Below, piece by piece: positions 152 through 43,901 of a stretch of DNA of 51,939 nt. How positions within the stretch are numbered: position 1 is the first letter of the stretch; every line of letters begins with the position of its first letter. The stretch covers positions 1-51,939 of the IMG/VR virus record IMGVR_UViG_3300044998_001165, one strand, 5' to 3'. The translations under genes were made by a program, and so were the position numbers. This stretch comes from a virus (lineage: Duplodnaviria > Caudoviricetes). The notes below the pieces were generated by a model. The model was given only the letters and a program-made list of their open reading frames with translations, made no database searches and was not told the origin of the DNA.

Positions 152-224
152 TGGTAACAGCAGGACTCGAACCTGCGACCTTCTGCGTATCAGGCAGATG
201 CTCTACCAACTGAGCTATGTTACC
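152..224 (-). tRNA. trnI: tRNA-Ile(GAT)
   Basis: Canonical cloverleaf: GGTAACA/TGTTACC acceptor, GCTC/GAGC D-stem, TCTGC-CTGATAC-GCAGA anticodon arm, GCAGG-TTCGAGT-CCTGC T-arm; CCA not encoded. Confidence 0.93.
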
Positions 225-613: not shown

Positions 614-685
614 CACCTCCTACAGGACTCGAACCTATACTAACGATTTTGGAAACCGTCGTGCTACCATTACAACTAAAGAGGT
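614..685 (-). tRNA. trnW: tRNA-Trp(CCA)
   Basis: ACCTCTT/AGGAGGT acceptor with G discriminator, ACGGT-TTCCAAA-ATCGT anticodon arm, ATAGG-TTCGAGT-CCTGT T-arm. Confidence 0.9.
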
Positions 686-9208: not shown

Positions 9209-9640
9209 TTGCCCCGAGTTGCCCCGAGTTGCCCCACGCGTTAACTTATGAATGCCCCGAGTTGCCCCAGCTTGCCCCACGCGTTAAGAATGGGTAAATT
9301 CTATTAATTCAAACGTTAAACAGCCTCATTATCAGCGCGTTTTTTTAGTTAAAATATGTTTGCCCCGAGTGCCCCAGCCGAATTTGCACTATTTCTATAT
9401 AGAGAGCAGAGATATATAGGCTTAAGATAGACGATTAAGTCCTATACTATTTTTTTTTCTACAGCCTGTCAATTACTTTTTAGCTGGGGCACTCGGGGCA
9501 AACATATTTTAACCTTTTTAGTTCATTGATTATCAAGCACTTTAACAAATTCTATAACATAATTTACCCATTTTTGGGGGCTGGGGCAAGCTGGGGCAAC
9601 TCGGGGCATTCATAAGTTAATAGATGTTTATGCTGGGGCA
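9209..9640. repeat. Iteron-rich nested inverted repeat, probable replication origin
   Basis: Perfect 39-bp IR (9241-9279/9582-9620), 31-bp IR (9348-9378/9483-9513), 12-bp IR (9289-9300/9561-9572); TGCCCC iterons flip orientation around an AT-rich centre; directly downstream of the primase-helicase. Confidence 0.85.
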
Positions 9641-21300: not shown

Positions 21301-23367
21301 ACAATCCCCATCCCATTCAATATATAACAATTTACCGTTTGTTGATGCAATTAAATTAACAGATTCTTTGACTGCAATGATTGTCGCATCAAAACAATTA
21401 TTTATCCAATCTGCAATATTTTGAGCTAATGTAAATGGATTTGAATCATAATTGGGAAAACAAAGGGTTGATGCACTCATATCTAACGCCAAGCATCCAA
21501 AAACGTTAAATATTGCCGGCAGATCGTTTACATTTACATAATCCTGCATATCTAAAACAAGGCGCATTCTGTCTGAAGGCACCGCGCATTCGTTGGTATG
21601 ATAACCCGCTTGGCACAGCGAAAAAGTCCGCGTACAAAGATCAATCCCCAGATTTTGGATAAAGTATTCCGCATCCAAAAAGAAATAGATCGTCCCGAGA
21701 GCTTCATTCAGCACCAGATAAGAATTACCTAAGACTTCATAAATACTACGTAGGTAGTTGTAAACATTTGCCAAGTATTCACTAAAATTACCCGCTTCTG
21801 ACATCCGCATTTGGGTCGGAATATCATTCCAATTTACACCTCCGCAAGTCAGGTTATCAATCAGTCCCCGAATGACAAAACCCGCATCGTTAAAAGGATT
21901 ATTCCAAACGTAATCCGGGTCATTTTTAATGGTGATTTGAGCCTTTGCGAAGCCCACCGGACAGGCATCTGTATCCGTTGACTGCCCCTCAACCGGACAG
22001 CAATAGAGTTCTGTCGAAACCGTGAATCCCGATAAATCGCCCGAGCATTCGCAGACTTTCCAAGTGTCTCGACACCAATCCCGCTTACTTAAATCAAGGT
22101 AGATATAAAAGCCTTGCGTCGGATCAGATGGGTTGACGTACTCGATGTATGAACTCCCGAAATGTTGCGGGAAAGCGGGAAATAATTCGGCTTCCAACCA
22201 TTGCTTTAAGCGATTATTGGTATCTAAATGCGTTGGGGGCTGAACGCAGGGCAACTCGCTTAGGGCATCGCAATCCAGAAAACCCGGAATAAAACGATAT
22301 GTACCCAATCCCCCGGGGTATGGTGGGAACGTCTGCACTTTTAGCCGAGCGTACCCGTCGGGGAGGATGCAGGGTGCATTGACTTCCGCCCGATTACCGC
22401 ACTGCATAAAATCTTCGGGGTTTACCTCAAAGCAAAAAAACGGCTGGGTGATCGTTGGCGGGAAGCCTGAGAATCCGGTAAAGGAGATGCTCGTACCATT
22501 CGCACAAGAACATCCCGGGAAGTCTGTTGGCGAAAGGTAAAAGGCTATTTCCCGCTCATTGGCTCCGTTTTTGAAGTAAACCAAGTCCGAATTCACATAC
22601 AGCGACCGAAAGTAGCCTTGTAAAGCTCCGAAAAAGAAATCAACGTCATGCGGACCCGCCCCCCAAAGGTCGAGCATCATTTCGCCCAAGTCAATAGTGA
22701 TACCGCACCCTAAGTCTATGCGAATCGGTTGGGAAGTAATGTCATCAAATTGATAATTGCCTGCACCGATTTTGAAGGAGAAAACGTTAGTTGCCGGACG
22801 CGAAACAGGGGGAACAACGCCTGTAATACAATCACAATTAAAAACGGCATCAGGCGTACCAATACCCGATCGCACCATAGAAACGGTTTGAAGCGTACAA
22901 TCACATTCATCCAACCAACGTTTATTCAAATAAAATTTAATCGTCGTATCGTCCGCAACCGCAAAAGAAGGAAAGAACCGACGATTGAACTTGGTGATGA
23001 TGTCTAATTGCAGTTCTTCGGTGGTATTGCCTGACGCATTGATGTAAAATGTTCTGCCACAGGGATTAAGGGTAATGCTATTCAAAACGCCCACTTCGCC
23101 CCTGCCTACCGAAACCCCTAAAGTCAGCACTTGATAACAGCAATCCACTGCACCCAAACCGGGGGCAACAAAGCAAGGCGCGCAAACCGGAATCGCAAAC
23201 AACTCGCCTCCGTTACAATCGCCCGTGAGGATTTCTTCTAAGGTCAATCCCTGCTGAATCGCGCCATTATTGCAGTCAATTTTTAAGGGCAGTAGTTTGA
23301 TGGCTGTATCCGAACCGTTGCTTACAACCGTATTCGGAAGCGGATATTTATAGGTATTGGTAGGCAT
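18364..23367 (-). CDS. Giant Cys-rich repeat-containing tail protein (possible evolved distal-tail/receptor-binding protein)
   Basis: 1667 aa, last gene of the tail-tip operon, recurring C..PDGYA / ECC motifs. Confidence 0.65.
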   Translation of the reverse strand: MPTNTYKYPLPNTVVSNGSDTAIKLLPLKIDCNNGAIQQGLTLEEILTGDCNGGELFAIPVCAPCFVAPGLGAVDCCYQVLTLGVSVGRGEVGVLNSITLNPCGRTFYINASGNTTEELQLDIITKFNRRFFPSFAVADDTTIKFYLNKRWLDECDCTLQTVSMVRSGIGTPDAVFNCDCITGVVPPVSRPATNVFSFKIGAGNYQFDDITSQPIRIDLGCGITIDLGEMMLDLWGAGPHDVDFFFGALQGYFRSLYVNSDLVYFKNGANEREIAFYLSPTDFPGCSCANGTSISFTGFSGFPPTITQPFFCFEVNPEDFMQCGNRAEVNAPCILPDGYARLKVQTFPPYPGGLGTYRFIPGFLDCDALSELPCVQPPTHLDTNNRLKQWLEAELFPAFPQHFGSSYIEYVNPSDPTQGFYIYLDLSKRDWCRDTWKVCECSGDLSGFTVSTELYCCPVEGQSTDTDACPVGFAKAQITIKNDPDYVWNNPFNDAGFVIRGLIDNLTCGGVNWNDIPTQMRMSEAGNFSEYLANVYNYLRSIYEVLGNSYLVLNEALGTIYFFLDAEYFIQNLGIDLCTRTFSLCQAGYHTNECAVPSDRMRLVLDMQDYVNVNDLPAIFNVFGCLALDMSASTLCFPNYDSNPFTLAQNIADWINNCFDATIIAVKESVNLIASTNGKLLYIEWDGDCCGSSFTVESYEGMYTAFGVVECCPAEPCTSVPDGYARFTFTIGDPDVGDTLNGFYMYIGDPFSPCFSLDLDAIVELQPSGIDYADELHLALQSTTYTDNGITSIHTNGTNVITIQMPMPATCCGETATLQLTGTGDPYLFTAETECCPGNCQSIGAGMAQLCFKVGANFEYGNPNTDASFFLQPDSLPCDPPIIPELSIASVADFDEYKVIVASFFSDLATTIGGGSSISQNGNIFCLTYNVANFQTLFGYNLCLASWIACTQSATPVCMFYTRVNVVFGLASESVTVNFKATCSATMPVTYETITVDSGADIDEFITNLITAWEALSPLHYVTQSIGDPTELFFYLPCSELPCTPVVQIAVESSSGSNYLNYNNLTDFGTTTPDAQTVPVEIISDWCCPFISESSPLPVQTLDLNVSKQPECCPPEGCAYADLEFELRNLVPDENDNVAWALVPFNTTCPVSLTPSPGDPYFVFSVEDYSTFPSLNSVLQSFVGTMNDAPNQVVTVTGNRMRIRVSRAWWLAQKGVDFCTLTFKVCSVGIVSDLVGNATIEITQQPLCCGEDCGKPCPDPDKNVIKIRVRNNGMVFGTGGDHVGLPLEATNRPCVATGEAGYNSFWWQIRIDDYRNTDFTTYFNNFVAIHNLNFWPTNYGGQLVYESVNANEGILTITTSRSAWQRVFNSDICKDGIRFCPNVANYSGLDWEIISNECCSPPADCPDIIDPPPPKVYDLCCGTEPEKLYFQFNIPDRINDYDTAPTAGWQETKSGNWFATVEAIDPDGNIIVPLSSLALRYYVGRDRKTERTYQGIEVNTEFLPNCFFLRFTFRTLPRETVIYSPLYRKTNGCCEQTMVFEALTDSDCSGHFYGLVDQFIGTPFKHIERLRMNGYLLFDSYEVTRQEENGRVISSTGQEVYRLVLDGMPPYVVKRFLNILTAPSFLIDNVEYTFDGTIDQNSEFGYNWWIDIKVKKKAFCEIIEGCG

Positions 23368-27234: not shown

Positions 27235-28935
27235 CTAAACGGTTCCTTTTATGGTAATGACATTTGATTTAACAGTCAACTCATTAATCCGAGCTAAGTA
27301 TTCGCCATTTCCAATCTTAAATTTTATACGCTTATCTAAGTCTATGGATTTGAGTAACTCGCAAGTCTTAACAACCGTCATGGTGAAATCCCAACCGACA
27401 AAAGGCGAATTCGGATTATTGGGTTCTTCGCCAAAATAGAAACGATCATACAGATTTTCGTCCTGAAAATAGAATTTATTGAGGCTTGGTGGGTTATTTC
27501 GGTCGCCATACCAATAATCGTAGTTGTAATGGAAGTCTTCACTGCCCGGATTGCGATTTCGGCGTAGGATTTTTGCGTTATCATGTGCAGAGTTGCCATC
27601 CCAAATGAGGAGTTTAGGATTCAAACAAACCCCCGAATTTAGGAGCAGGTTGTTATCGTCCCGCGATTCAATATTTAGGATGGTATCGCTGATGAAGGGT
27701 ATCTCCTGCCATCCCGAAAGCACATCCCGTTCGATCCCGTCGCGACGATAACGGGAAGGGGCGAATTTCAGTGCATACACTTTTTCACCCTCAAGGCGCG
27801 GATCAACGACGTTTCGATCAAAATCGATCTTTTCATTATATAAAAAAGAGGCTTCATTGCCTACGAAATCGCGGGGGTCTTTGGCATAATCGAATGTATA
27901 ATAACGAGGCAAACCATCCGTAAACGTAAAACAGGGCTTTTCGATGATGTTCTTATCCTCCAAACTACTCGCATCATACCAGATTGAATTATCCGAAATA
28001 TCCCGCGTCCGCTCGAATTTGACGACTCCGTTTTTGATGCGATAATCGGCATTAAACACAGGCTTTAAGTCATCCAAAAGGCGTGCTCCGTTGATGTTGG
28101 GATCGTTTTCTTCTCGGTAGGAATGATAATCAAAAGTACCTTCCTTGACCGGTGCAACAAAGTAAAGGGTATTGTAATAAGGCGAATTCGGGTTGTTAAA
28201 GATGGACGAATCGAACGTTAATCCACACTGATCGCAGGCGTTTTGCATCATTTCACGCACCAAGAACGCAGGATGCCCTTGCCCACAACCCACCACGTAG
28301 TTTTGAATGAGGTTTATCAGATTATTAACCTCATTATTCAGCGAAAAGGTAATCTCTAAACCATCCAGCCCCAAAAATGAGGTTATCGCATTAATGATAG
28401 CTATGATAGCCTCAATAACCAAAGCCAGCGGTTTCAATACCAAAACGACTGTAATAACCAACAGCATTCCAAATACCAAATACATATCGTGCATCGTATT
28501 GGAGCGCATCTCGTTGCAATAGCGAACGAACTTGTGTTGTCTGGAGCGAAAGCCGTTATAATCCGCCGTCGTCGAAACCCGCGCCAAACACCCCCAATCG
28601 GGGTCATTTTCCGTCAAACTACCTGTTACATAGCATTCTCCGGCACACCATTCCAAACTACCCAAGTCCAATTTGCCGGCAAAAAGCAGATGCCCATCGC
28701 AACAATCATCATAGATATTGACTAAGAGTATTTTCGTCTTTCCGTTTCGCAAATCATAGATAATCTCATCATAGATCAGATTATAAGCCTCACCATAAAA
28801 CTTTAATTCCGAGCCAAACCCCACCGCACGAAGTCCCGTTTCGTCGGAAATGCGATACGTAAACTCAGCCGATTGCAAGCCCTGAACGTCGGAGGCTTTG
28901 ATCGGTTGATTGTTGATGGTGATGCGGTAAGCCAT
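27235..28935 (-). CDS. Putative tail tip/hub protein with internal hydrophobic segment
   Basis: First long gene of the tail-tip operon; MMQNACDQCGLTFDSS and DDLKPVFNADYRIKNG resemble hub proteins; ends VITIKG. Confidence 0.55.
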   Translation of the reverse strand: MAYRITINNQPIKASDVQGLQSAEFTYRISDETGLRAVGFGSELKFYGEAYNLIYDEIIYDLRNGKTKILLVNIYDDCCDGHLLFAGKLDLGSLEWCAGECYVTGSLTENDPDWGCLARVSTTADYNGFRSRQHKFVRYCNEMRSNTMHDMYLVFGMLLVITVVLVLKPLALVIEAIIAIINAITSFLGLDGLEITFSLNNEVNNLINLIQNYVVGCGQGHPAFLVREMMQNACDQCGLTFDSSIFNNPNSPYYNTLYFVAPVKEGTFDYHSYREENDPNINGARLLDDLKPVFNADYRIKNGVVKFERTRDISDNSIWYDASSLEDKNIIEKPCFTFTDGLPRYYTFDYAKDPRDFVGNEASFLYNEKIDFDRNVVDPRLEGEKVYALKFAPSRYRRDGIERDVLSGWQEIPFISDTILNIESRDDNNLLLNSGVCLNPKLLIWDGNSAHDNAKILRRNRNPGSEDFHYNYDYWYGDRNNPPSLNKFYFQDENLYDRFYFGEEPNNPNSPFVGWDFTMTVVKTCELLKSIDLDKRIKFKIGNGEYLARINELTVKSNVITIKGTV

Positions 28936-28972
28936 ATGAATAGATATCGCAATTTAAGATTACCATTCACCG

Positions 28973-29155
28973 CTATTCGCTATCTGTCAACGCTTTATTT
29001 TCAACTTCCGTACCACACAATACCGTACTCCCCTCCACATTTTGGGCAATGGAGATGGTGTTTCCTACCAGTATAACAACCGTAATCCCTTGTTCTGTCG
29101 TAACGACTTCCTGTAAGGCTTGTGTTATAATCTTAGTGGCATTCTCTATATTCAT
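28973..29155 (-). CDS. Hypothetical protein
   Basis: 60-aa ORF downstream of a -7 box. Confidence 0.5.
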   Translation of the reverse strand: MNIENATKIITQALQEVVTTEQGITVVILVGNTISIAQNVEGSTVLCGTEVENKALTDSE

Positions 29156-29174
29156 GCGAATAAAATTAATTTTA

Positions 29175-29182
29175 CAAATATA
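29175..29182 (-). promoter_or_regulatory. Bacteroidota -7 box (TATATTTG) for the tail-tip operon
   Basis: Exact TAnnTTTG match. Confidence 0.55.
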
Positions 29183-29218
29183 ACATAGAGAACAATACCT
29201 TGCCTATACCCCTATTAA

Positions 29219-29250
29219 TAAAAAAATCCTTTAGCTGTTAACTAAAGGAT
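29219..29250 (-). terminator. Intrinsic terminator of the putative sRNA
   Basis: 9-bp perfect stem followed by a T run on the minus strand. Confidence 0.75.
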
Positions 29251-29291
29251 CGGCATAGATATAATCTTTCACTGCCTTGCGACAGCGCAAC
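29219..29291 (-). ncRNA. Putative antisense small RNA
   Basis: TACTTTTG box at 29295-29302, CTGTC-GCAA-GGCAG hairpin, AGTGAAAGATTAT antisense to two early leaders, terminator ATCCTTTAG/CTAAAGGAT plus T-tract. Confidence 0.65.
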
Positions 29292-29328
29292 GCACAAAAG
29301 TAACGATATTGCCATAAAATCCAAGCCT

Positions 29329-29429
29329 TAACATTTTTTATACACCTTAATATTGTGTAGTTCAAAATTTTGCCGTTACTTTGTACCATAATCTTTCACT
29401 CAAACAAACAGCAACAATGACAGCAACAA
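29329..29429 (+). promoter_or_regulatory. Early promoter/leader cassette copy 1
   Basis: Near-duplicate of 30485-30585; TACAC-N9-GTGTA palindrome, TTACTTTG near-consensus -7 box, shared leader and first codons. Confidence 0.8.
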
Positions 29430-29941
29430 TCAACCGCTCGCAAATCTTCAAAAACGCTTGGAACTTCGTTCGCACCTTAGCGTTGAGTATCTCTGAAGCC
29501 CTCAAGAGGGCATGGGCAGAGGCGAAAAACGGAATCGGCGCAATGGCAGTAATTGCGGAAGAGGTAAAAACGGTAACTTTTGAAGTTACGACGCGTTCGC
29601 TCGGTAAAGTTACGGCAATTGTCGAAGTTACGGAAAAAGGAATAAAAAACGGCGCACCGGTAGGAAAAATCATGAAGGACGGGAAAGAGGTGTGTGCTAT
29701 AAAATCAGTAGAACGCTTTACTTATTTTATCAAAGACCACTCCGCATCGTTGAAAGTAACGATCAACGGGGTTGATGGCAAAATTTTGATAAGCAAAGAG
29801 CAAGGCGATTCTTGCTTTTTTTCCCCGCGAGTTGACGCGGTAACTGAGCGAAAATGGAGCGAAAGCGAAGGATGCTACGTAGATATTACGACGGAATACA
29901 TAAACGGCAAAAAAATTGTAAGAAAATCTTTTGATTATTAA
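29417..29941 (+). CDS. Early hypothetical protein (start ATG 29417)
   Basis: IFKNAW...SEALKRAWAEAK N-terminal motif common in small phage proteins. Confidence 0.8.
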   Translation: MTATINRSQIFKNAWNFVRTLALSISEALKRAWAEAKNGIGAMAVIAEEVKTVTFEVTTRSLGKVTAIVEVTEKGIKNGAPVGKIMKDGKEVCAIKSVERFTYFIKDHSASLKVTINGVDGKILISKEQGDSCFFSPRVDAVTERKWSESEGCYVDITTEYINGKKIVRKSFDY

Positions 29942-29964
29942 TTCACCCTTAAACTCTTAAAGCA

Positions 29965-30285
29965 ATGACAGCAACACAGATGACCACGAGCCATATTGCA
30001 CGCATAACCGAAATGACTCAAAAAATCGAGGCTATCGGGGAACTTAGAGCATCTAAATTTCATGCCCTTGCAAATACTGACAAAATCAGGGCAAGGGGTA
30101 TGATGGAGTTGGAAAAAGATTTAGCGCAAGACTTTGATGTGTTTGTAACGAAAACTATCAAGGATGCAGAGGAGGCTTTATCATTCATTTTGCCCCTCTG
30201 CCAAGCCGACCCAATATGGGAAGAATTTAGCTCTGGGGAGTGGCTTGACTGGATTAATTCTCACCATGATTATAAAAAACAATGA
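29965..30285 (+). CDS. Early hypothetical protein
   Basis: 106-aa ORF starting MTAT like its neighbours. Confidence 0.75.
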   Translation: MTATQMTTSHIARITEMTQKIEAIGELRASKFHALANTDKIRARGMMELEKDLAQDFDVFVTKTIKDAEEALSFILPLCQADPIWEEFSSGEWLDWINSHHDYKKQ

Positions 30286-30506
30286 AGCACCCCGCAACCA
30301 AAGAAACGATAACCCGCCTCCTAAAAGAAGCGGGTTATGTTAATGAAAACAGACGAATTCAACGCGCCCGCTTCTGTAATGATACCGGAACGAATCCTTG
30401 TACATTTGATAAGTGGATCAACGGACAAGTCGCTATATCATTAACTACGCTCGAATCCTTAGCCCAAAAACTATCCATAAACATTAACATTTTTTACACA
30501 CCTTAA
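30282..30506 (+). CDS. XRE-like HTH protein, paralog 1
   Basis: FCNDTGTNPCTFDKWINGQVAISLTTL; similar to 31800-32018. Confidence 0.75.
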   Translation: MKHPATKETITRLLKEAGYVNENRRIQRARFCNDTGTNPCTFDKWINGQVAISLTTLESLAQKLSININIFYTP

Positions 30507-30585
30507 TATTGTGTATTCCAAACCAGTCTGCTATCTTTGTAGCATAATCTTTCACTCAAACAAACAGCAACAATGACAGCAACAA
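30485..30585 (+). promoter_or_regulatory. Early promoter/leader cassette copy 2
   Basis: TACACA-N9-TGTGTA palindrome (30495-30515), TATCTTTG -7 box (30532-30539), leader identical to copy 1. Confidence 0.8.
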
Positions 30586-30932
30586 CATTATCCCGCGTTA
30601 TTTTTGGCAATTTCGCCTTAAATTACAGCGACCGCAAGGATACGCCTTACTTTTATGTCAGCAAGGCTGACGGAACTTTGGTAGGCGATTGTCAATATTC
30701 GATAGAGATTCACAATCTCTACGAGATTCAACGCTGGGCTATTTTGGATAGCTTAAAAGATGTTGAAGAAATTACTGATCCCGAAATCGCGCTTGATTAT
30801 TTGAGAAATACACTAAGCCTACCTGATTTCGATAGCTACATTCCAGAGGCTTTCAATCAATTAAGCGAAGACGATAAGCAGTATTGCTACCTAATTTGCT
30901 TTGAATTTGCACTCAATAAACTCTATGCTTAA
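30573..30932 (+). CDS. Early acidic hypothetical protein
   Basis: ORF directly after cassette 2. Confidence 0.75.
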   Translation: MTATTLSRVIFGNFALNYSDRKDTPYFYVSKADGTLVGDCQYSIEIHNLYEIQRWAILDSLKDVEEITDPEIALDYLRNTLSLPDFDSYIPEAFNQLSEDDKQYCYLICFEFALNKLYA

Positions 30933-31233
30933 TTCACCGATCATCTGCCTCCGTTTCATCGCAGTTTTTTGCGATGAAACGGGCTTAAATTTTGGGGCTA
31001 AAGATTTAGAATTTAACCCCGATACCAAAGAAATTACCGGATGGTTAACGGTTGGTAAAGGAGACTTTTCGACTTTTTGTAGTCTGCTAACGACCGAATG
31101 CCACGCTTTAGGACTTTTGTCGGAAATGCTCCGAATCGAAATAAAAGGTTTATCCTTAGCAGAAACGGACTTGTTATTTAGTGAATTAGAGCAGAAAGCA
31201 ATCGAAAATAATATCGTGTGCTTTGCCGAATAA
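30925..31233 (+). CDS. Early hypothetical protein (start ATG 30925)
   Basis: ORF overlapping the upstream stop by 8 nt. Confidence 0.65.
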   Translation: MLNSPIICLRFIAVFCDETGLNFGAKDLEFNPDTKEITGWLTVGKGDFSTFCSLLTTECHALGLLSEMLRIEIKGLSLAETDLLFSELEQKAIENNIVCFAE

Positions 31234-31302
31234 GAGCCCTTTCGTTAAGACACCTAACCCGCTCCGGCGGGGACTTATTCAAACCATTAAACTTATAAAG
31301 CA

Positions 31303-31800
31303 ATGAATATAGTTAACTGTACGCCGCACCCCATTACCCTTTTGGGTGTGGACGGTGAAATGGTAGCCGAAATTCAACCATCGGGCATTGTCCCACGCGC
31401 AACCAAAACCACAGAAACGGTTGCACATGTTGAAATAAACGGGAATCAAATCCCCGTTATCGTTCCAAAATTTGGGGGGGTATCCAACCTTCCCGAGCCA
31501 GAAGAAGGAACTATGTTTATAGTGTCGCTTATCGTACAGCAAGCCTGCCCCGAGCGTACCGATCTTCTCATCGTCGAGGATGTAGTGCGGGACGGCAGTG
31601 TAATCGTAGGCTGTAAAGCCTTTGGCGCGCCCACACCTTCTGAAGAAGCGAAGGTTCTTGCTGAGAACTTGCGCATGATGTACGACGGATGGGCGTACGT
31701 AGCTTGGTGCGGAGGTGATAATCCACATAATACCCCGCACAGTGTTTCGCAAGTGGTGCAAGAGTTGATGATTAAACATACAGGCAAAACATTATATTAA
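31303..31800 (+). CDS. Conserved viral protein of unknown function (N.TPH family)
   Basis: NCTPHPITL...PSGIVPR...LPEPEEGTMFIVS...RTDLL...VRDG..VGC pattern recurrent in phage proteins. Confidence 0.8.
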   Translation: MNIVNCTPHPITLLGVDGEMVAEIQPSGIVPRATKTTETVAHVEINGNQIPVIVPKFGGVSNLPEPEEGTMFIVSLIVQQACPERTDLLIVEDVVRDGSVIVGCKAFGAPTPSEEAKVLAENLRMMYDGWAYVAWCGGDNPHNTPHSVSQVVQELMIKHTGKTLY

Positions 31801-32018
31801 TGAAGCACCCCGACACGCAACTCATTACAACTCGCCTTATGATCGAGGCGGGTTTCCGTAATAAAAACTGGACATATGACCAAAAGGTGTTCTGTGAAGC
31901 AACGGGGCTTAAACCCCGAACACTTGCAGGCTACTTGGATGGTAAATCATCTATCAGCGTGCAGAAAGTACGCAAGTTATTAGAAACCCTAAACCTCAAA
32001 ACGTTTGATATTGTATGA
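31800..32018 (+). CDS. XRE-like HTH protein, paralog 2
   Basis: MKHP start; FCEATGLKPRTLAGYLDGKSSISV. Confidence 0.75.
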   Translation: MKHPDTQLITTRLMIEAGFRNKNWTYDQKVFCEATGLKPRTLAGYLDGKSSISVQKVRKLLETLNLKTFDIV

Positions 32019-32197
32019 CGTACCACACCCCCATCCAACTCGGATTAACACCTAAACATTTCGACACGCCTGCGGATTGCCTGCGGGCGTGCGAACTTAT
32101 AAGGCAATATATGCAACGCAAGGTCATCCGTGTACCGATTGGCAAGCGTGCGATTCAGGCTTTAGAGATTAAGGCGCATCGGTTAACCATTACCTAA
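32015..32197 (+). CDS. Small basic hypothetical protein
   Basis: ATGA overlap; ends at the terminator. Confidence 0.6.
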   Translation: MTYHTPIQLGLTPKHFDTPADCLRACELIRQYMQRKVIRVPIGKRAIQALEIKAHRLTIT

Positions 32198-32220
32198 CCC
32201 GCTTCGGCGGGTTTTCTTTT
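32196..32220 (+). terminator. Intrinsic terminator ending the early island
   Basis: AACCCGC-TTCG-GCGGGTT plus T-tract. Confidence 0.85.
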
Positions 32221-32329
32221 ACCTGCTACATAACAAAGCGATCGAAAATGACTATCCCAATAAGGATAATTCCACGAACAATATCGCATTTCAATTAAGT
32301 CTATGAAAGTAAAAGCCTGCATAAATATA

Positions 32330-33469
32330 TTACCCCTCAATACTCTCACTAATCACGATCGGCATCAGTAACATCAGCAACTCCTCATTGCTTTGATTGT
32401 ATTCCGGCAAGACCACGGCTGCGCGGGAAGGGGTATCCAATTCCAAGGTTACCTCTTCGGAATCAATGTTGTTCAGCACCTCCGTCATCAGTGAAATATT
32501 GAACCCGATTTCAATTGCCTGCCCTTCATAGATACAAGAGATTCTTTCACGACCTTTGTTACCATCCAAATTATCAGAAGAGACCAACACTTCCGATTTA
32601 TGAAACGCAAATTTTGCCAAGCGATCTCCCGCATTAGCATAGTTTTTCAAGCGTTTTATGGTGGATAGCAAAAATCCTTTTCCAATCATTGCTTGGTTCG
32701 GACTGGATTTCGGGATGACGCTTTCATAATCCGGGAAAGTAGCGTCAATCAGTCGGCACACTAATAGTGTACTGTCAATATAAAAGAAGGCATTCCGGTC
32801 GGTGTATTGTAAAATGATGTCTTCATTTGCGTTGGTGCAGGCGTTTTTGACCAACTTCAAAGCCTTGGCTGGCAAAATAAAATTGGCGGGTTCATTCGCC
32901 TTAATATCCGTGCGCCGACATCGCACTAAGCGGTGCGCATCTGTAGCAACAAAGTCCGCATACTCCATTCCGAATTGAAAATATACCCCGGTTAAGGCGA
33001 GCTTCATTTCATCAGTTGAAACCGCAAAAATCGTTCGATCAATAATAGCATTCATTACATCGGGATTGATGGTAATGGAATGCGTCTCATCCGCTTTGGT
33101 GAACCGCGGGAAGTCCGCTCCATCCCTGCCGGTAATGTCATACTCCCCGTTATTGGTGATGATTTTGACAATCGGCGAAATGCTGTCCGGTAATAATTGA
33201 AATGTTAGCTCCTGCTCCGGTAATGCCTTAAGGGTATCAAGAATGATTTTGCCGGGCAAGGCTATGTTAAATATGGATTTCGGATCACATTCCACCGATA
33301 GCACGGTTTGCATCATGATCTCCATATCGGTAGCTGTCAGGAATAATTGTCCTTCCTGTACCTCAAAAAGAATATTGGCAACGATCGGCAAGACGGGCTT
33401 GGAAGGCACTGTTCCCAAAATTATGCCGAGGCGTTTTTGTAATTCGGATGACGAAACAGTGAATTTCAT
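32330..33469 (-). CDS. dnaN: DNA polymerase III beta subunit (sliding clamp)
   Basis: MKFTVSS...PVLPIVANILF...TATDME, ATDAHRL, CRLIDATFPDYESVIP, IGFN, LLMPI; full three-domain length. Confidence 0.95.
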   Translation of the reverse strand: MKFTVSSSELQKRLGIILGTVPSKPVLPIVANILFEVQEGQLFLTATDMEIMMQTVLSVECDPKSIFNIALPGKIILDTLKALPEQELTFQLLPDSISPIVKIITNNGEYDITGRDGADFPRFTKADETHSITINPDVMNAIIDRTIFAVSTDEMKLALTGVYFQFGMEYADFVATDAHRLVRCRRTDIKANEPANFILPAKALKLVKNACTNANEDIILQYTDRNAFFYIDSTLLVCRLIDATFPDYESVIPKSSPNQAMIGKGFLLSTIKRLKNYANAGDRLAKFAFHKSEVLVSSDNLDGNKGRERISCIYEGQAIEIGFNISLMTEVLNNIDSEEVTLELDTPSRAAVVLPEYNQSNEELLMLLMPIVISESIEG

Positions 33470-42848: not shown

Positions 42849-43901
42849 TTAAGGAGTGGTGGTAATGACTGCGATACCGTTTACGTCTTGTAATTCATCT
42901 CCCGCACCGAAAGAATCGGAAGGGATCGCATACGGTTGGTAATGTTTTTCAATGACGATCGTTACGCTGTTATCTTTATCGCAGTCATCGTATTTAACGA
43001 ACATATCGAAACTGATGCCGGTAACAAGATCACGATAACGCCCCTTTTCCTGTGAACCGATTTGAACCGCCACCAATGGGTTACGATTCCACTCGAACAT
43101 TTGAAACGCGCCGGGTTTTAAGCCGATGATACAACGGTTGTTAGGAGTTAATAAAGTATCGGTAAAATCATCCCGGTACTCCGTTACGTTGTCAAAGATT
43201 GCAGGCATGTTGATACCGGTGTTAGTATTCATGCCACCCATTGTTGATCTAAAAATACGAAGGGTCGTTAACTCTGCCTCGCCGATTAGCATCACGTTGT
43301 TATCAACGCCCGTATCGTTCAAGTCTTTTAACATCGAAGCCCACTGCGAAGCTTTGATGCGTTCGTTGGTCGTATCGTACAAGTCGTAAGGTGTGGCAGA
43401 AAATAACGTCCCGCCTTTCTTTTTGTTTGGTAAGGCAGCGATGTAGCTAATAAGGGTTTGGTCAATATCAGCACAAAGTTTGTGCATGATATGCTCAATA
43501 GAGGTAGCGATCAAGTAATCCCGCCCTTCGCAAAACTCTTTTAACTGTCCGAAATCCAATTTAATGCTGTCGGAAGATACCCTTGTAATTTCGATAAGAT
43601 CACTTTTCCAGATCGGATCGGCGGCGGGATCACACAAGTTCTTCTCCGTATTGGTCGGCGTTCCTTTCGGTCGGCGTTGCATGTACTTGAATTCTACTTT
43701 TCGTAATTTGCCATCACCGCCACCGCCGGTAAAATCCGGAGCCTGTACATAACTACGGTTTAGCTGGCTGGTTGTCGCCATCACTACCCCATAGTTTCCA
43801 CGCCTATTTTGAGGCGCAAATTGTCCATTGAGGTAGTATTCTGCCATCCGTTGCTGGATGTTCACACATACTCCCTCAATGTAGTTAGAAGTTAAAGACA
43901 T
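42849..43901 (-). CDS. Major capsid protein
   Basis: 350 aa following portal and scaffold; HK97-like layout (E-loop region, backbone helix IEHIMHKLCADIDQTLI). Confidence 0.75.
   Translation of the reverse strand: MSLTSNYIEGVCVNIQQRMAEYYLNGQFAPQNRRGNYGVVMATTSQLNRSYVQAPDFTGGGGDGKLRKVEFKYMQRRPKGTPTNTEKNLCDPAADPIWKSDLIEITRVSSDSIKLDFGQLKEFCEGRDYLIATSIEHIMHKLCADIDQTLISYIAALPNKKKGGTLFSATPYDLYDTTNERIKASQWASMLKDLNDTGVDNNVMLIGEAELTTLRIFRSTMGGMNTNTGINMPAIFDNVTEYRDDFTDTLLTPNNRCIIGLKPGAFQMFEWNRNPLVAVQIGSQEKGRYRDLVTGISFDMFVKYDDCDKDNSVTIVIEKHYQPYAIPSDSFGAGDELQDVNGIAVITTTP

What the first reader, a model, noticed from the sequence alone, without database searches (positions are those of the whole stretch)
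29219..30556. Putative trans-acting small RNA antisense to the 5' ends of two duplicated early transcripts
Seen: on the minus strand, a perfect Bacteroidota -7 box (29295-29302) precedes a ~70-nt non-coding unit made of a GCAA-tetraloop hairpin, the stretch AGTGAAAGATTAT (29261-29273) and a 9-bp terminator with T-tract. The exact complement ATAATCTTTCACT lies 4 nt after the -7 box of both plus-strand early cassettes (29388-29400, 30544-30556), i.e. at the predicted mRNA 5' ends. Known precedent: P1/P7 C4 and P4 CI antisense RNAs repress phage early genes. Inference: a self-contained RNA immunity/timing switch that silences several early operons at once, possibly compensating for the damaged CI-like repressor. 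The alternative is a triplicated DNA operator.
Basis: partly seen in the sequence, partly recalled or inferred. Interest (0 to 1): 0.85.

Follow-up and report, generated by a model that had tools for sequence, protein, structure and literature searches.

The report
Candidate phage antisense small RNA
A small promoter-to-terminator unit in an uncultivated Bacteroidota-type phage carries 13 bases that exactly match, in antisense, the first 13 bases of two duplicated early messages, so it may be a small regulatory RNA, but this is seen in only one genome and no expression data exist.

Summary
ATAATCTTTCACT occurs exactly three times, all on the + strand: 29261, 29388 and 30544. Two copies begin at the predicted +1 of duplicated promoter/leader cassettes. 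The third lies on the opposite strand inside a unit made of a -7 box (29302-29295), two hairpins and a 12-pair terminator with a T-tract.

A chance origin is unlikely only because of where the third copy sits: 22 of 20,000 shuffles of the adjacent intergenic stretch gave a match. Genome-wide, 74 of 300 simulated genomes gave one.

Three related phage records keep the cassette with +1..+14 invariant. None has a third copy.

One relative, G002, has the same arrangement at the same place: minus-strand promoter, short RNA, terminator, second promoter, late operon. Its RNA body shows only weak, gapped likeness to the leader.

So a small minus-strand transcription unit is supported by anatomy and position. 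Its action as an antisense regulator rests on this genome alone. No RNA data, no seed-target covariation, no Rfam family and no sign of lysogeny or "immunity" were found.

My odds are about 0.35 for an antisense sRNA. The rivals are a non-functional remnant, a late-operon leader and a DNA site.

The parts
29295..29302 (-). P1: perfect Bacteroidota-type -7 box TACTTTTG. The predicted start of the small RNA is about 29290.
   Evidence: It is one of only two perfect boxes on the minus strand in 28500-33000. The box position of -12..-5 comes from PMC9723704. A box at the same place in G002 reads TACCTTTG.
29277..29290 (-). 5' hairpin SL1 (UUGCG-CUGU-CGCAA) of the predicted RNA.
   Evidence: minimum-free-energy and centroid structures.
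29252..29276 (-). SL2: a 4-bp stem GGCA/UGCC closing a 17-nt loop that holds 12 of the 13 seed bases.
   Evidence: The mean unpaired probability of the 13-mer is 0.62 and its opening energy is 4.8 kcal/mol.
29261..29273 (+). Third copy of ATAATCTTTCACT. It reads AGUGAAAGAUUAU in the minus-strand RNA.
   Evidence: The 13-bp duplex with either cassette is -14.8 kcal/mol.
29219..29251 (-). Intrinsic terminator with a 12-pair stem (29251-29225) and a T7 tract.
   Evidence: The base of the stem and the tail (GATCC...GGATTTTTTTATTA) are shared with G002, while the inner stem differs on both sides.
29175..29182 (-). P2: perfect -7 box TATATTTG, 19 nt upstream of the ATG (29155) of the minus-strand structural operon.
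   Evidence: G002 has TATTTTTG at the same place.
29323..29429 (+). Cassette 1: upstream element, -7 box TTACTTTG (29376-29383), 13-mer at +1..+13 (29388-29400), A/C-rich leader, and ATG at 29417 followed by the first codons (MTAT).
   Evidence: (repeat families D3 and D6).
30479..30585 (+). Cassette 2: the same elements, with -7 box TATCTTTG (30532-30539), 13-mer 30544-30556, and ATG at 30573. Its upstream element overlaps the 3' end of the HTH1 gene.
30282..30506 (+). HTH1, an intact 74-aa Cro/CI-type protein.
   Evidence: (PF13443, E = 3e-5).
31800..32018 (+). HTH2, an intact 72-aa Cro/CI-type protein. It is 49-52% identical to the HTH that lies between the cassettes of G001 and G002.

Best explanation
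The window is a complete ~51.8-kb phage genome with Bacteroidota-type signals.

Inferred: host RNA polymerase starts at promoter P1 (box 29302-29295, start about 29290) and stops at the terminator (about 29221). This would give a ~70-nt non-coding RNA with a 5' hairpin, a second hairpin whose 17-nt loop displays AGUGAAAGAUUAU, and the terminator hairpin.

Shown: those 13 bases are perfectly complementary to the 13 bases that start 4 nt after the -7 box of both cassettes.

Inferred: those 13 bases are +1..+13 of the two duplicated + strand messages, 17 nt upstream of their AUG. Pairing would put a duplex on the 5' edge of the A/C-rich, Shine-Dalgarno-less leader. That would hinder ribosome loading and expose the message to decay or Rho-type polarity. 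One RNA would then damp both small-gene operons, acting as a delayed negative control made alongside them.

Shown and not shown: the sequence, the fold and the complementarity are shown. Transcription, pairing in the cell and the direction of the effect are all inferred.
For: - The exact 13-mer occurs three times, and none of 100 shuffles gave a match.
- Only 22 of 20,000 shuffles of the adjacent 167-nt intergenic stretch gave a cassette word.
- P1 is a perfect -7 box, one of only two on the minus strand in 28500-33000.
- -7 boxes are enriched in intergenic DNA: 13 in 5,001 nt against 43 in the coding rest.
- 3 of 50 genes have a Shine-Dalgarno-like core, which fits a Bacteroidota-type host.
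- The terminator has 12 pairs and a T7 tract.
- The fold has z = -2.67. The seed lies in a loop, with 0.62 unpaired probability and 4.8 kcal/mol to open. The targets are open, at 0.08 and 0.02 kcal/mol.
- The duplex is -14.8 kcal/mol. It ranks first for the 13-mer and 3-7 of 5,182 windows for the 19-nt unpaired stretch.
- The left edge of the match coincides with the predicted +1.
- In 7 of 7 aligned cassettes, -2 and -1 vary while +1..+14 is invariant. The conserved element therefore starts where the transcript starts.
- P1, the terminator and P2 sit at the same places in G002, although the rest of that intergenic region is barely alignable.
- The G002 body aligns, with gaps, to the cassette leader. 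The score is 18. 27-29 of 2,000 shuffles reach it, and 67 of 6,482 genome windows are as good.
- In Bacteroides, intergenic sRNAs with their own start and an intrinsic terminator are the validated class, and they use long unpaired seeds (PMC7366714, passages).
Against: - No expression data of any kind exist.
- 0 of 3 cassette-bearing relatives (G001, G002, G003) has a third copy at up to 1 mismatch, and none has a sub-word of 9-10 nt in a suggestive place.
- The G002 RNA gives only -9.1 kcal/mol with its cassettes, and 22.8% of genome windows are as good.
- With the whole leader as query, the G002 unit is not among the top 14 windows. Other A/C-rich gene leaders score 24-30, so its likeness may be generic.
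- +1..+14 is invariant without any antisense partner in relatives, so the sRNA does not explain that conservation.
- The duplex is AU-rich. It nets roughly -10 kcal/mol after opening (my subtraction) and ends 17 nt before the AUG.
- With a 25-nt query the cassettes rank only 103-274 of 5,182 windows.
- P1 has no clear -33 element (my reading).
- The evidence comes from a single genome.
Confidence: 0.35

Rival explanations
1. Remnant without a pairing role. The third copy is left over from local duplication or recombination among the mobile promoter/leader cassettes. The P1-terminator unit may be real, but its function does not use the 13-mer.
For: - Cassettes behave as mosaic modules. They are almost the only DNA alignable between the window and G001-G003.
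- In G003 the same promoter and +1..+14 are joined to a different leader.
- The G002 body looks like a decayed leader copy with mismatches and a 9-nt deletion.
- The window body after the 13-mer shows only a weak echo of the start-codon region: 73 of 2,000 shuffles and 442 of 6,901 windows are as good.
- At the roughly 2-11% divergence seen between the two cassettes, a 13-nt piece can stay intact by chance.
- Exact 13-mer repeats are common: 243 distinct words recur.
Against: - An island of 13 nt needs two breakpoints. One falls exactly at the predicted +1, and the island fills the space between a terminator and a promoter on the other strand in both the window and G002.
- There is no significant likeness of 29200-29322 to the HTH1 gene that precedes cassette 2: 45 of 300 shuffles are as good.
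Confidence: 0.27
2. Leader or attenuator of the late operon. P1 is a promoter of the minus-strand structural operon, and the terminator is a regulated stop, in the manner of lambdoid PR'-tR' (recalled). The ~70-nt RNA is the terminated leader. The 13-mer may then be incidental, or it may let early messages talk to the leader.
For: - The unit sits directly upstream of the structural operon in the window and in G002.
- Six distant relatives carry a different ~95-nt unit at the head of their structural operon. It has a promoter, a covarying closing stem, an invariant core and a terminator.
- The arrangement 'promoter, short RNA, terminator, late genes' therefore recurs in 8 genomes.
Against: - A second perfect -7 box (P2) lies between the terminator and the ATG in both the window and G002, so the operon does not need P1.
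- No alternative anti-terminator pairing was evident (my reading).
- No antiterminator protein was recognised, although most ORFs have no family.
- The covariance model of the relatives' RNA finds nothing in the window or in G001-G003.
Confidence: 0.15
3. DNA site. The 13-mer is bound as double-stranded DNA by a protein, either one of the HTH proteins or an RNA-polymerase-associated factor. It would be bound at both early starts for repression, and at a third site between P1 and P2.
For: - There are three direct copies in 1.3 kb.
- +1..+14 is invariant in relatives that lack an antisense copy, so some reader other than this sRNA exists.
- HTH genes accompany the cassettes in the window, G001 and G002.
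Against: - The site has no dyad symmetry (my reading), unlike usual Cro/CI operators.
- The cassette upstream element holds ACAC-N9-GTGT, which is a better operator candidate.
- The first 8 nt (ATAATCTT) follow TATCTTTGTAnC in otherwise unlike contigs with other leaders: L051, L088, and seven loci that share one sequence. They also appear in X9 and X10. This points to an initially transcribed or promoter-escape element rather than a repressor site.
- G003 keeps the 13-mer but has no HTH homologue at E <= 0.01. Its contig does start at the cassette, so a gene just upstream could be cut off.
- Conservation starts exactly at +1.
Confidence: 0.13
4. Pure chance match.
For: 74 of 300 simulated genomes contain at least one 13-nt cassette word somewhere.
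Against: Only 22 of 20,000 shuffles place one in the adjacent intergenic stretch. It also lies on the right strand, in the loop of a promoter-terminator unit.
Confidence: 0.05

Closest known systems
Satellite phage P4 CI RNA (with P1/P7 C4 RNA)
   Same: A small phage RNA whose one recognition stretch is complementary to two repeated target sequences in phage early transcripts, and which shuts them down. The P4 case is CI pairing with seqA and seqC, described in PMC4825925 (passage).
   Different: - CI and C4 are processed out of the very transcript they control, and they serve prophage immunity. The P1/P7 C4 details are recalled.
- Here the RNA would have its own promoter and terminator on the opposite strand, and it would pair with the extreme 5' ends of messages from two duplicated promoters.
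- No lysogeny genes were recognised.
- No Rfam family matched.
Bacteroides intergenic trans-acting sRNAs such as GibS
   Same: Own sigma-A-type start, an intrinsic terminator, an unpaired AU-rich seed, pairing with 5' regions of several mRNAs, and no Hfq or ProQ in the host phylum (PMC7366714, passages).
   Different: GibS is chromosomal, is conserved within a genus, and pairs around start codons. This candidate is phage-borne, is seen in one genome, and pairs at +1..+13, which is 17 nt before the AUG.
Lambda OOP and P22 sar antisense RNAs (recalled)
   Same: Short phage RNAs with their own promoter and terminator that act against phage messages.
   Different: Those RNAs are cis-encoded and overlap their target gene. 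This unit does not overlap either target and would act in trans at about 100 nt and 1.25 kb.
Lambdoid PR'-tR' short terminated late leader (6S RNA; recalled)
   Same: A promoter followed within about 70 nt by a strong terminator, directly upstream of the late structural operon.
   Different: A second promoter lies after the terminator here, and no Q-like factor was recognised.

Membership tests
Trans-encoded base-pairing sRNA (Bacteroidota intergenic class) | Own promoter and transcription start in an intergenic region | tested here: inconclusive
   There is a perfect -7 box at 29302-29295, and one at the same place in G002. This is a prediction only. No start-site data exist.
Trans-encoded base-pairing sRNA (Bacteroidota intergenic class) | Intrinsic terminator at the 3' end | tested here: met
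   A 12-pair stem plus T7 lies at 29251-29219. It is kept in G002 with changed inner stem bases.
Trans-encoded base-pairing sRNA (Bacteroidota intergenic class) | Accessible seed complementary to target mRNA 5' regions | tested here: met
   13 of 13 bases pair with both cassettes at -14.8 kcal/mol. The seed is in a 17-nt loop and costs 4.8 kcal/mol to open. The targets are open.
Trans-encoded base-pairing sRNA (Bacteroidota intergenic class) | Seed conserved, or covarying with targets, in relatives | tested here: not met
   0 of 3 cassette-bearing relatives has an antisense copy. The G002 unit pairs poorly and shows only gapped likeness at p of about 0.01.
Trans-encoded base-pairing sRNA (Bacteroidota intergenic class) | The RNA is expressed and changes target levels | not testable with these tools
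   No RNA run holds the stretch. The laid runs were contigs only.
P1/P7 C4 - P4 CI immunity RNA | Sequence and structure homology to the family | tested here: not met
   An Rfam scan of the whole window found only 2 tRNAs. A permissive scan of 29100-29450 gave 5 weak, unrelated hits with E of 0.69-7.8. That Rfam holds a C4 model is recalled.
P1/P7 C4 - P4 CI immunity RNA | Processed from the leader of the operon it controls, with targets in that same transcript | tested here: not met
   The unit lies on the opposite strand with its own box and terminator. The targets are in separate transcripts.
P1/P7 C4 - P4 CI immunity RNA | Temperate or satellite life style (prophage immunity) | tested here: inconclusive
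   None of 50 ORFs matched an integrase, recombinase or excisionase in PHROGs, but most ORFs match nothing.
Cro/CI-type operator set | Dyad-symmetric site | tested here: not met
   The 13-mer and its flanks have no inverted symmetry (my reading).
Cro/CI-type operator set | Site co-occurs with the cognate HTH gene | tested here: inconclusive
   An HTH gene is present with the cassettes in the window, G001 and G002. None was found in G003, whose contig begins at the cassette.
Lambdoid late leader (PR'-tR' with Q) | Sole late promoter followed by a terminator, with a Q-type antiterminator | tested here: not met
   A second perfect box (P2) lies after the terminator. No antiterminator family was matched.

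The most novel reading that the evidence does not exclude
The ~70-nt RNA is a weapon as well as a brake. It targets the 14-nt 5' end that is invariant across a family of otherwise unalignable phages (7 of 7 cassettes), and only this phage carries the exact antisense copy. It could therefore silence the early messages of co-infecting relatives as well as time its own. That would be an RNA-based superinfection interference in a Bacteroidota phage, working without Hfq through a loop-displayed 13-nt seed on the extreme 5' end of mRNAs.
Probability: 0.1. Interest if true: 0.75.

Novelty: new variant of a known kind. Interest (0 to 1): 0.45.

Why it matters
Two literature searches surfaced no paper on a phage-encoded sRNA in Bacteroidota (search listings only). 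Riboregulation in this Hfq-less phylum is only starting to be mapped (PMC7366714).

If real, this would be a compact case that is easy to test with compensatory mutations. One phage RNA would control two duplicated early operons by pairing with the first 13 nt of their messages.

Two results stand independently of the sRNA question:
- A family of hot-spring and mat phages shares a promoter/leader cassette whose transcribed +1..+14 is invariant while the genomes are otherwise unalignable.
- Short promoter-RNA-terminator units precede the structural operon in 8 related genomes. Both are leads on early/late control in Bacteroidota phages.

Tried and rejected
Searches for relatives
- GenBank phages: no match to 28900-31300, to cassette 2, or to HTH2.
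- IMG/VR, exact 27-nt stretch of the unit: 0 hits.
- IMG/VR, single-protein searches with the 566-aa neighbour, the clamp and the 174-aa gene: no relatives.
- IMG/VR, HTH alignment: only G001 and G002 again.
- IMG/VR, leader 21-mer: only G001 and G002.
- Metagenome contigs: the 174-aa protein found nothing. The promoter+13-mer pattern gave 5 stretches, all chance matches in unlike contexts.
- Genome contigs: the same pattern gave 4 chance matches. The G003 CRISPR-like repeat gave 0.
- The 34 loci found with the 566-aa alignment have another gene order and no cassette.

Expression
- No RNA holder was listed.
- Laying X6, X7, X9 and X10 gave only short contigs covering parts of 29413-30522. The stretch 29207-29408 had no cover.

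Rejected ideas
- A minus-strand 52-aa ORF at 29231-29389 would start upstream of P1 inside cassette 1. I treated it as spurious and did not test it further.
- A sigma-70-like + strand promoter (TTAACT-16-TATAAT, 29238-29265) is set aside because the genome's signals are of the Bacteroidota type.
- An anti-terminator role of the seed: only a weak, bulged alternative pairing was seen by eye.
- Homology of 29200-29322 to the HTH1 gene is not significant.

Tools not available
- Supplements of the papers were not seen. The start-site tables of PMC9723704 and PMC7366714 might refine the box-to-start distance.
Full report
WHAT THE WINDOW IS

The window is a complete virus record with a 127-nt direct terminal repeat. 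Nearly all genes lie on the minus strand. These include the large terminase, a primase/helicase, a Mu Gam-like protein, the sliding clamp, an exonuclease and an endolysin. The one exception is a 2.8-kb + strand block (29417-32197) of eight small genes. Two of them are intact Cro/CI-type HTH proteins.

The signals are of the Bacteroidota type:
- TAnnTTTG boxes are enriched in intergenic DNA, with 13 in 5,001 nt against 43 in the coding rest.
- Only 3 of 50 genes have a Shine-Dalgarno-like core, and leaders are A-rich.

None of the 50 ORFs scanned against PHROGs matched an integrase, recombinase or excisionase. Nothing therefore points to lysogeny.

THE OBSERVATION

ATAATCTTTCACT occurs exactly three times, all on the + strand: 29261, 29388 and 30544 (none of 100 shuffles gave a match).

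Two copies belong to a duplicated cassette, at 29323-29429 and 30479-30585. Its two blocks are 44 nt at 89% identity and 51 nt at 98% identity. Each cassette holds an upstream element, a -7 box, the 13-mer 4 nt later, an A/C-rich leader, and an ATG followed by MTAT.

In Flavobacterium the sigma-A box lies at -12..-5 (PMC9723704, passage). On that rule the 13-mer is +1..+13 of both messages.

The third copy lies 127 nt upstream of cassette 1 in the divergent intergenic region. On the minus strand it is preceded by a perfect box (TACTTTTG, 29302-29295). It is followed by a 12-pair terminator with T7 (29251-29219).

The predicted 70-nt RNA folds into three parts:
- a 5' hairpin with a CUGU loop, not a GCAA tetraloop;
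- a 4-bp stem closing a 17-nt loop that holds 12 of the 13 bases;
- the terminator.

For an 86-nt stretch, z = -2.67 and 2 of 200 shuffles fold as well.

IS IT MORE THAN CHANCE?

As a bare repeat, it is not. 243 distinct 13-mers recur in this genome. 74 of 300 simulated genomes contain some 13-nt word of the cassette somewhere.

As a repeat in the adjacent 167-nt intergenic stretch, it is: 22 of 20,000 shuffles. The significance therefore rests on place, strand and setting.

RELATIVES

The phage is isolated:
- GenBank phages gave nothing.
- The neighbouring 566-aa protein has homologues at only about 24-38% identity.
- Those loci have another gene order and no cassette.

A pattern over the -7 box and the start of the 13-mer found 72 IMG/VR stretches. 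Most are chance hits in coding DNA. Three records carry the true cassette: G001 (2 copies), G002 (2) and G003 (1).

By blastn the cassettes are almost the only DNA these genomes share with the window. The other shared pieces are part of HTH2 and the start of the first gene.

In an alignment of all 7 cassettes, three things stand out:
- CTTTGTA is invariant.
- The two bases before the 13-mer vary.
- ATAATCTTTCACTC (+1..+14) is invariant. This holds even in G003, where a different leader follows.

So a discrete element begins exactly at the predicted start.

Its first 8 nt also follow TATCTTTGTAnC in unlike contigs with other leaders. These are L051, L088, and seven loci that share one sequence. 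The same 8 nt appear in loose ends of contigs from runs X9 and X10, which are about 90% identical to the first gene. I read ATAATCTT as an initially transcribed or promoter-escape element. This is inference.

DOES THE ANTISENSE COPY TRAVEL WITH ITS TARGETS?

It does not. At up to 1 mismatch, G001, G002 and G003 have the 13-mer only in their cassettes. No 9-10-nt sub-word sits in a suggestive place. G001 is a fragment and G003 begins at its cassette. G002 has terminal repeats, although CheckV rates it 64% complete.

G002 does have the same architecture at the same place. Upstream of its first cassette, on the minus strand, it has in order:
- a box (TACCTTTG);
- a 23-nt body;
- a terminator whose base and tail (GATCC...GGATTTTTTTATTA) match the window's, while the inner stem differs on both sides;
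- a second box;
- the ATG of the minus-strand structural operon.

Its RNA has no notable duplex with its own cassettes: -9.1 kcal/mol, with 22.8% of genome windows as good.

A gapped alignment of its body to the leader is modestly better than chance. The alignment is AATATTTTAGCTCAA, then a 9-nt gap, then AACAATG, and it scores 18. 27-29 of 2,000 shuffles reach that score, while the reverse-complement control is reached by 1,293-1,308 of 2,000 shuffles. 67 of 6,482 genome windows are as good.

With the whole leader as query, however, other A/C-rich gene leaders score higher. This can be read two ways: as a decayed antisense gene, or as a decayed cassette remnant.

WIDER PATTERN

Six of the distant relatives carry a different, conserved ~95-nt unit at the head of their structural operon. 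It consists of:
- a -7 box;
- a covarying closing stem (GCGGA/UCCGC, changing to GCAG/CUGC);
- an invariant core, CCAAGGTT(T)AAGGTTGTCA;
- a terminator.

It has no Rfam family. Its covariance model finds nothing in the window or in G001-G003. 'Promoter, short RNA, terminator, late genes' therefore recurs in 8 genomes with three unrelated RNA bodies.

WEIGHING THE READINGS

For an antisense sRNA:
- a complete gene anatomy;
- a loop-displayed seed and open targets;
- a perfect 13-bp match that starts at +1 of both messages;
- a promoter and a terminator conserved in position.

Against it:
- no expression data;
- a single genome;
- no conserved or covarying seed;
- an invariant target element that must have another reader;
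- a modest AU-rich duplex that ends 17 nt before the AUG.

The energetics are as follows. The duplex is -14.8 kcal/mol, and opening the seed costs 4.8. The cassettes rank first for the 13-mer alone, 3-7 for the 19-nt unpaired stretch, and only 103-274 of 5,182 windows for a 25-nt query.

My odds:
- antisense sRNA acting on both cassettes: 0.35;
- remnant with no pairing role: 0.27;
- late-operon leader or attenuator: 0.15;
- DNA site: 0.13;
- chance: 0.05;
- the rest unassigned.

COMPARISON WITH KNOWN SYSTEMS

In logic it is closest to P4 CI RNA, which has one antisense stretch and two repeated targets (PMC4825925, passage). It also resembles the P1/P7 C4 RNA (recalled). It fails their defining features:
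- It is not processed from the controlled transcript.
- It has no homology to them.
- There is no sign of a temperate life style.

In form it matches the Bacteroides intergenic sRNA class, with its own start, an intrinsic terminator and a long unpaired seed (PMC7366714, passages).

I file it as a new variant of a known kind, still unproven.

Noticed in passing
L003:1151-1250, L007:1123-1215, L009:2922-3023, L013:3488-3580, L014:1681-1779, L018:3703-3801 (+ strand): A conserved ~95-nt promoter-RNA-terminator unit sits at the head of the structural operon in six distant relatives. It has a closing stem with compensatory changes (GCGGA/UCCGC to GCAG/CUGC) and an invariant core CCAAGGTT(T)AAGGTTGTCA. 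No Rfam family matched. Covariance model R1 finds only these six. It is possibly an undescribed phage RNA, such as a leader, an antitermination element or an sRNA.
   Followed up: partly
G003 = L120, record coordinates about 42940-43470: A CRISPR-like array sits at the end of a phage contig. It has at least 8 copies of a ~30-nt repeat with ~36-nt spacers. The repeat has no exact match in genome contigs.
   Followed up: partly
G002 = L114, record coordinates 23219-23300 (minus strand): This is a third promoter of the cassette type (CTATTGCAC ... TATCTTTG). It drives only about 75 nt before a terminator, so it is another candidate small transcription unit.
   Followed up: no
window 29417, 29965, 30573; G003 (L118) 56: Unrelated small proteins all begin MTAT, with the same ATGACAGCAACA. 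This includes the second gene of the first operon and the G003 gene. The translation start region is conserved as a module, independent of the protein.
   Followed up: partly
window 9210-9620: A large inverted repeat has 94-nt arms at 79% complementarity and a perfect 31-nt pair. It carries two identical divergent -7 boxes (TATGTTTG) and tandem TGCCCCGAGT-like repeats. It could be an origin or a divergent promoter region.
   Followed up: no
window 30309-30338 (minus strand) and 29799-29816 (+ strand): Strong terminator-like hairpins lie inside + block genes. One is a 13-pair stem antisense to the start of HTH1. The other lies in sense inside the 174-aa gene.
   Followed up: no
window 29342-29359 and 30498-30515: An identical 18-nt element, ACACCTTAATATTGTGTA (ACAC-N9-GTGT), covers the -33 region of both cassettes. 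It is replaced by ACCGTCTAACTATTGCACA in G001 and G002, whose HTH is about 50% identical to HTH2. It is a candidate operator that may covary with the HTH.
   Followed up: partly
window 152-224 and 614-685 (minus strand): Two tRNA genes lie near the genome end.
   Followed up: no
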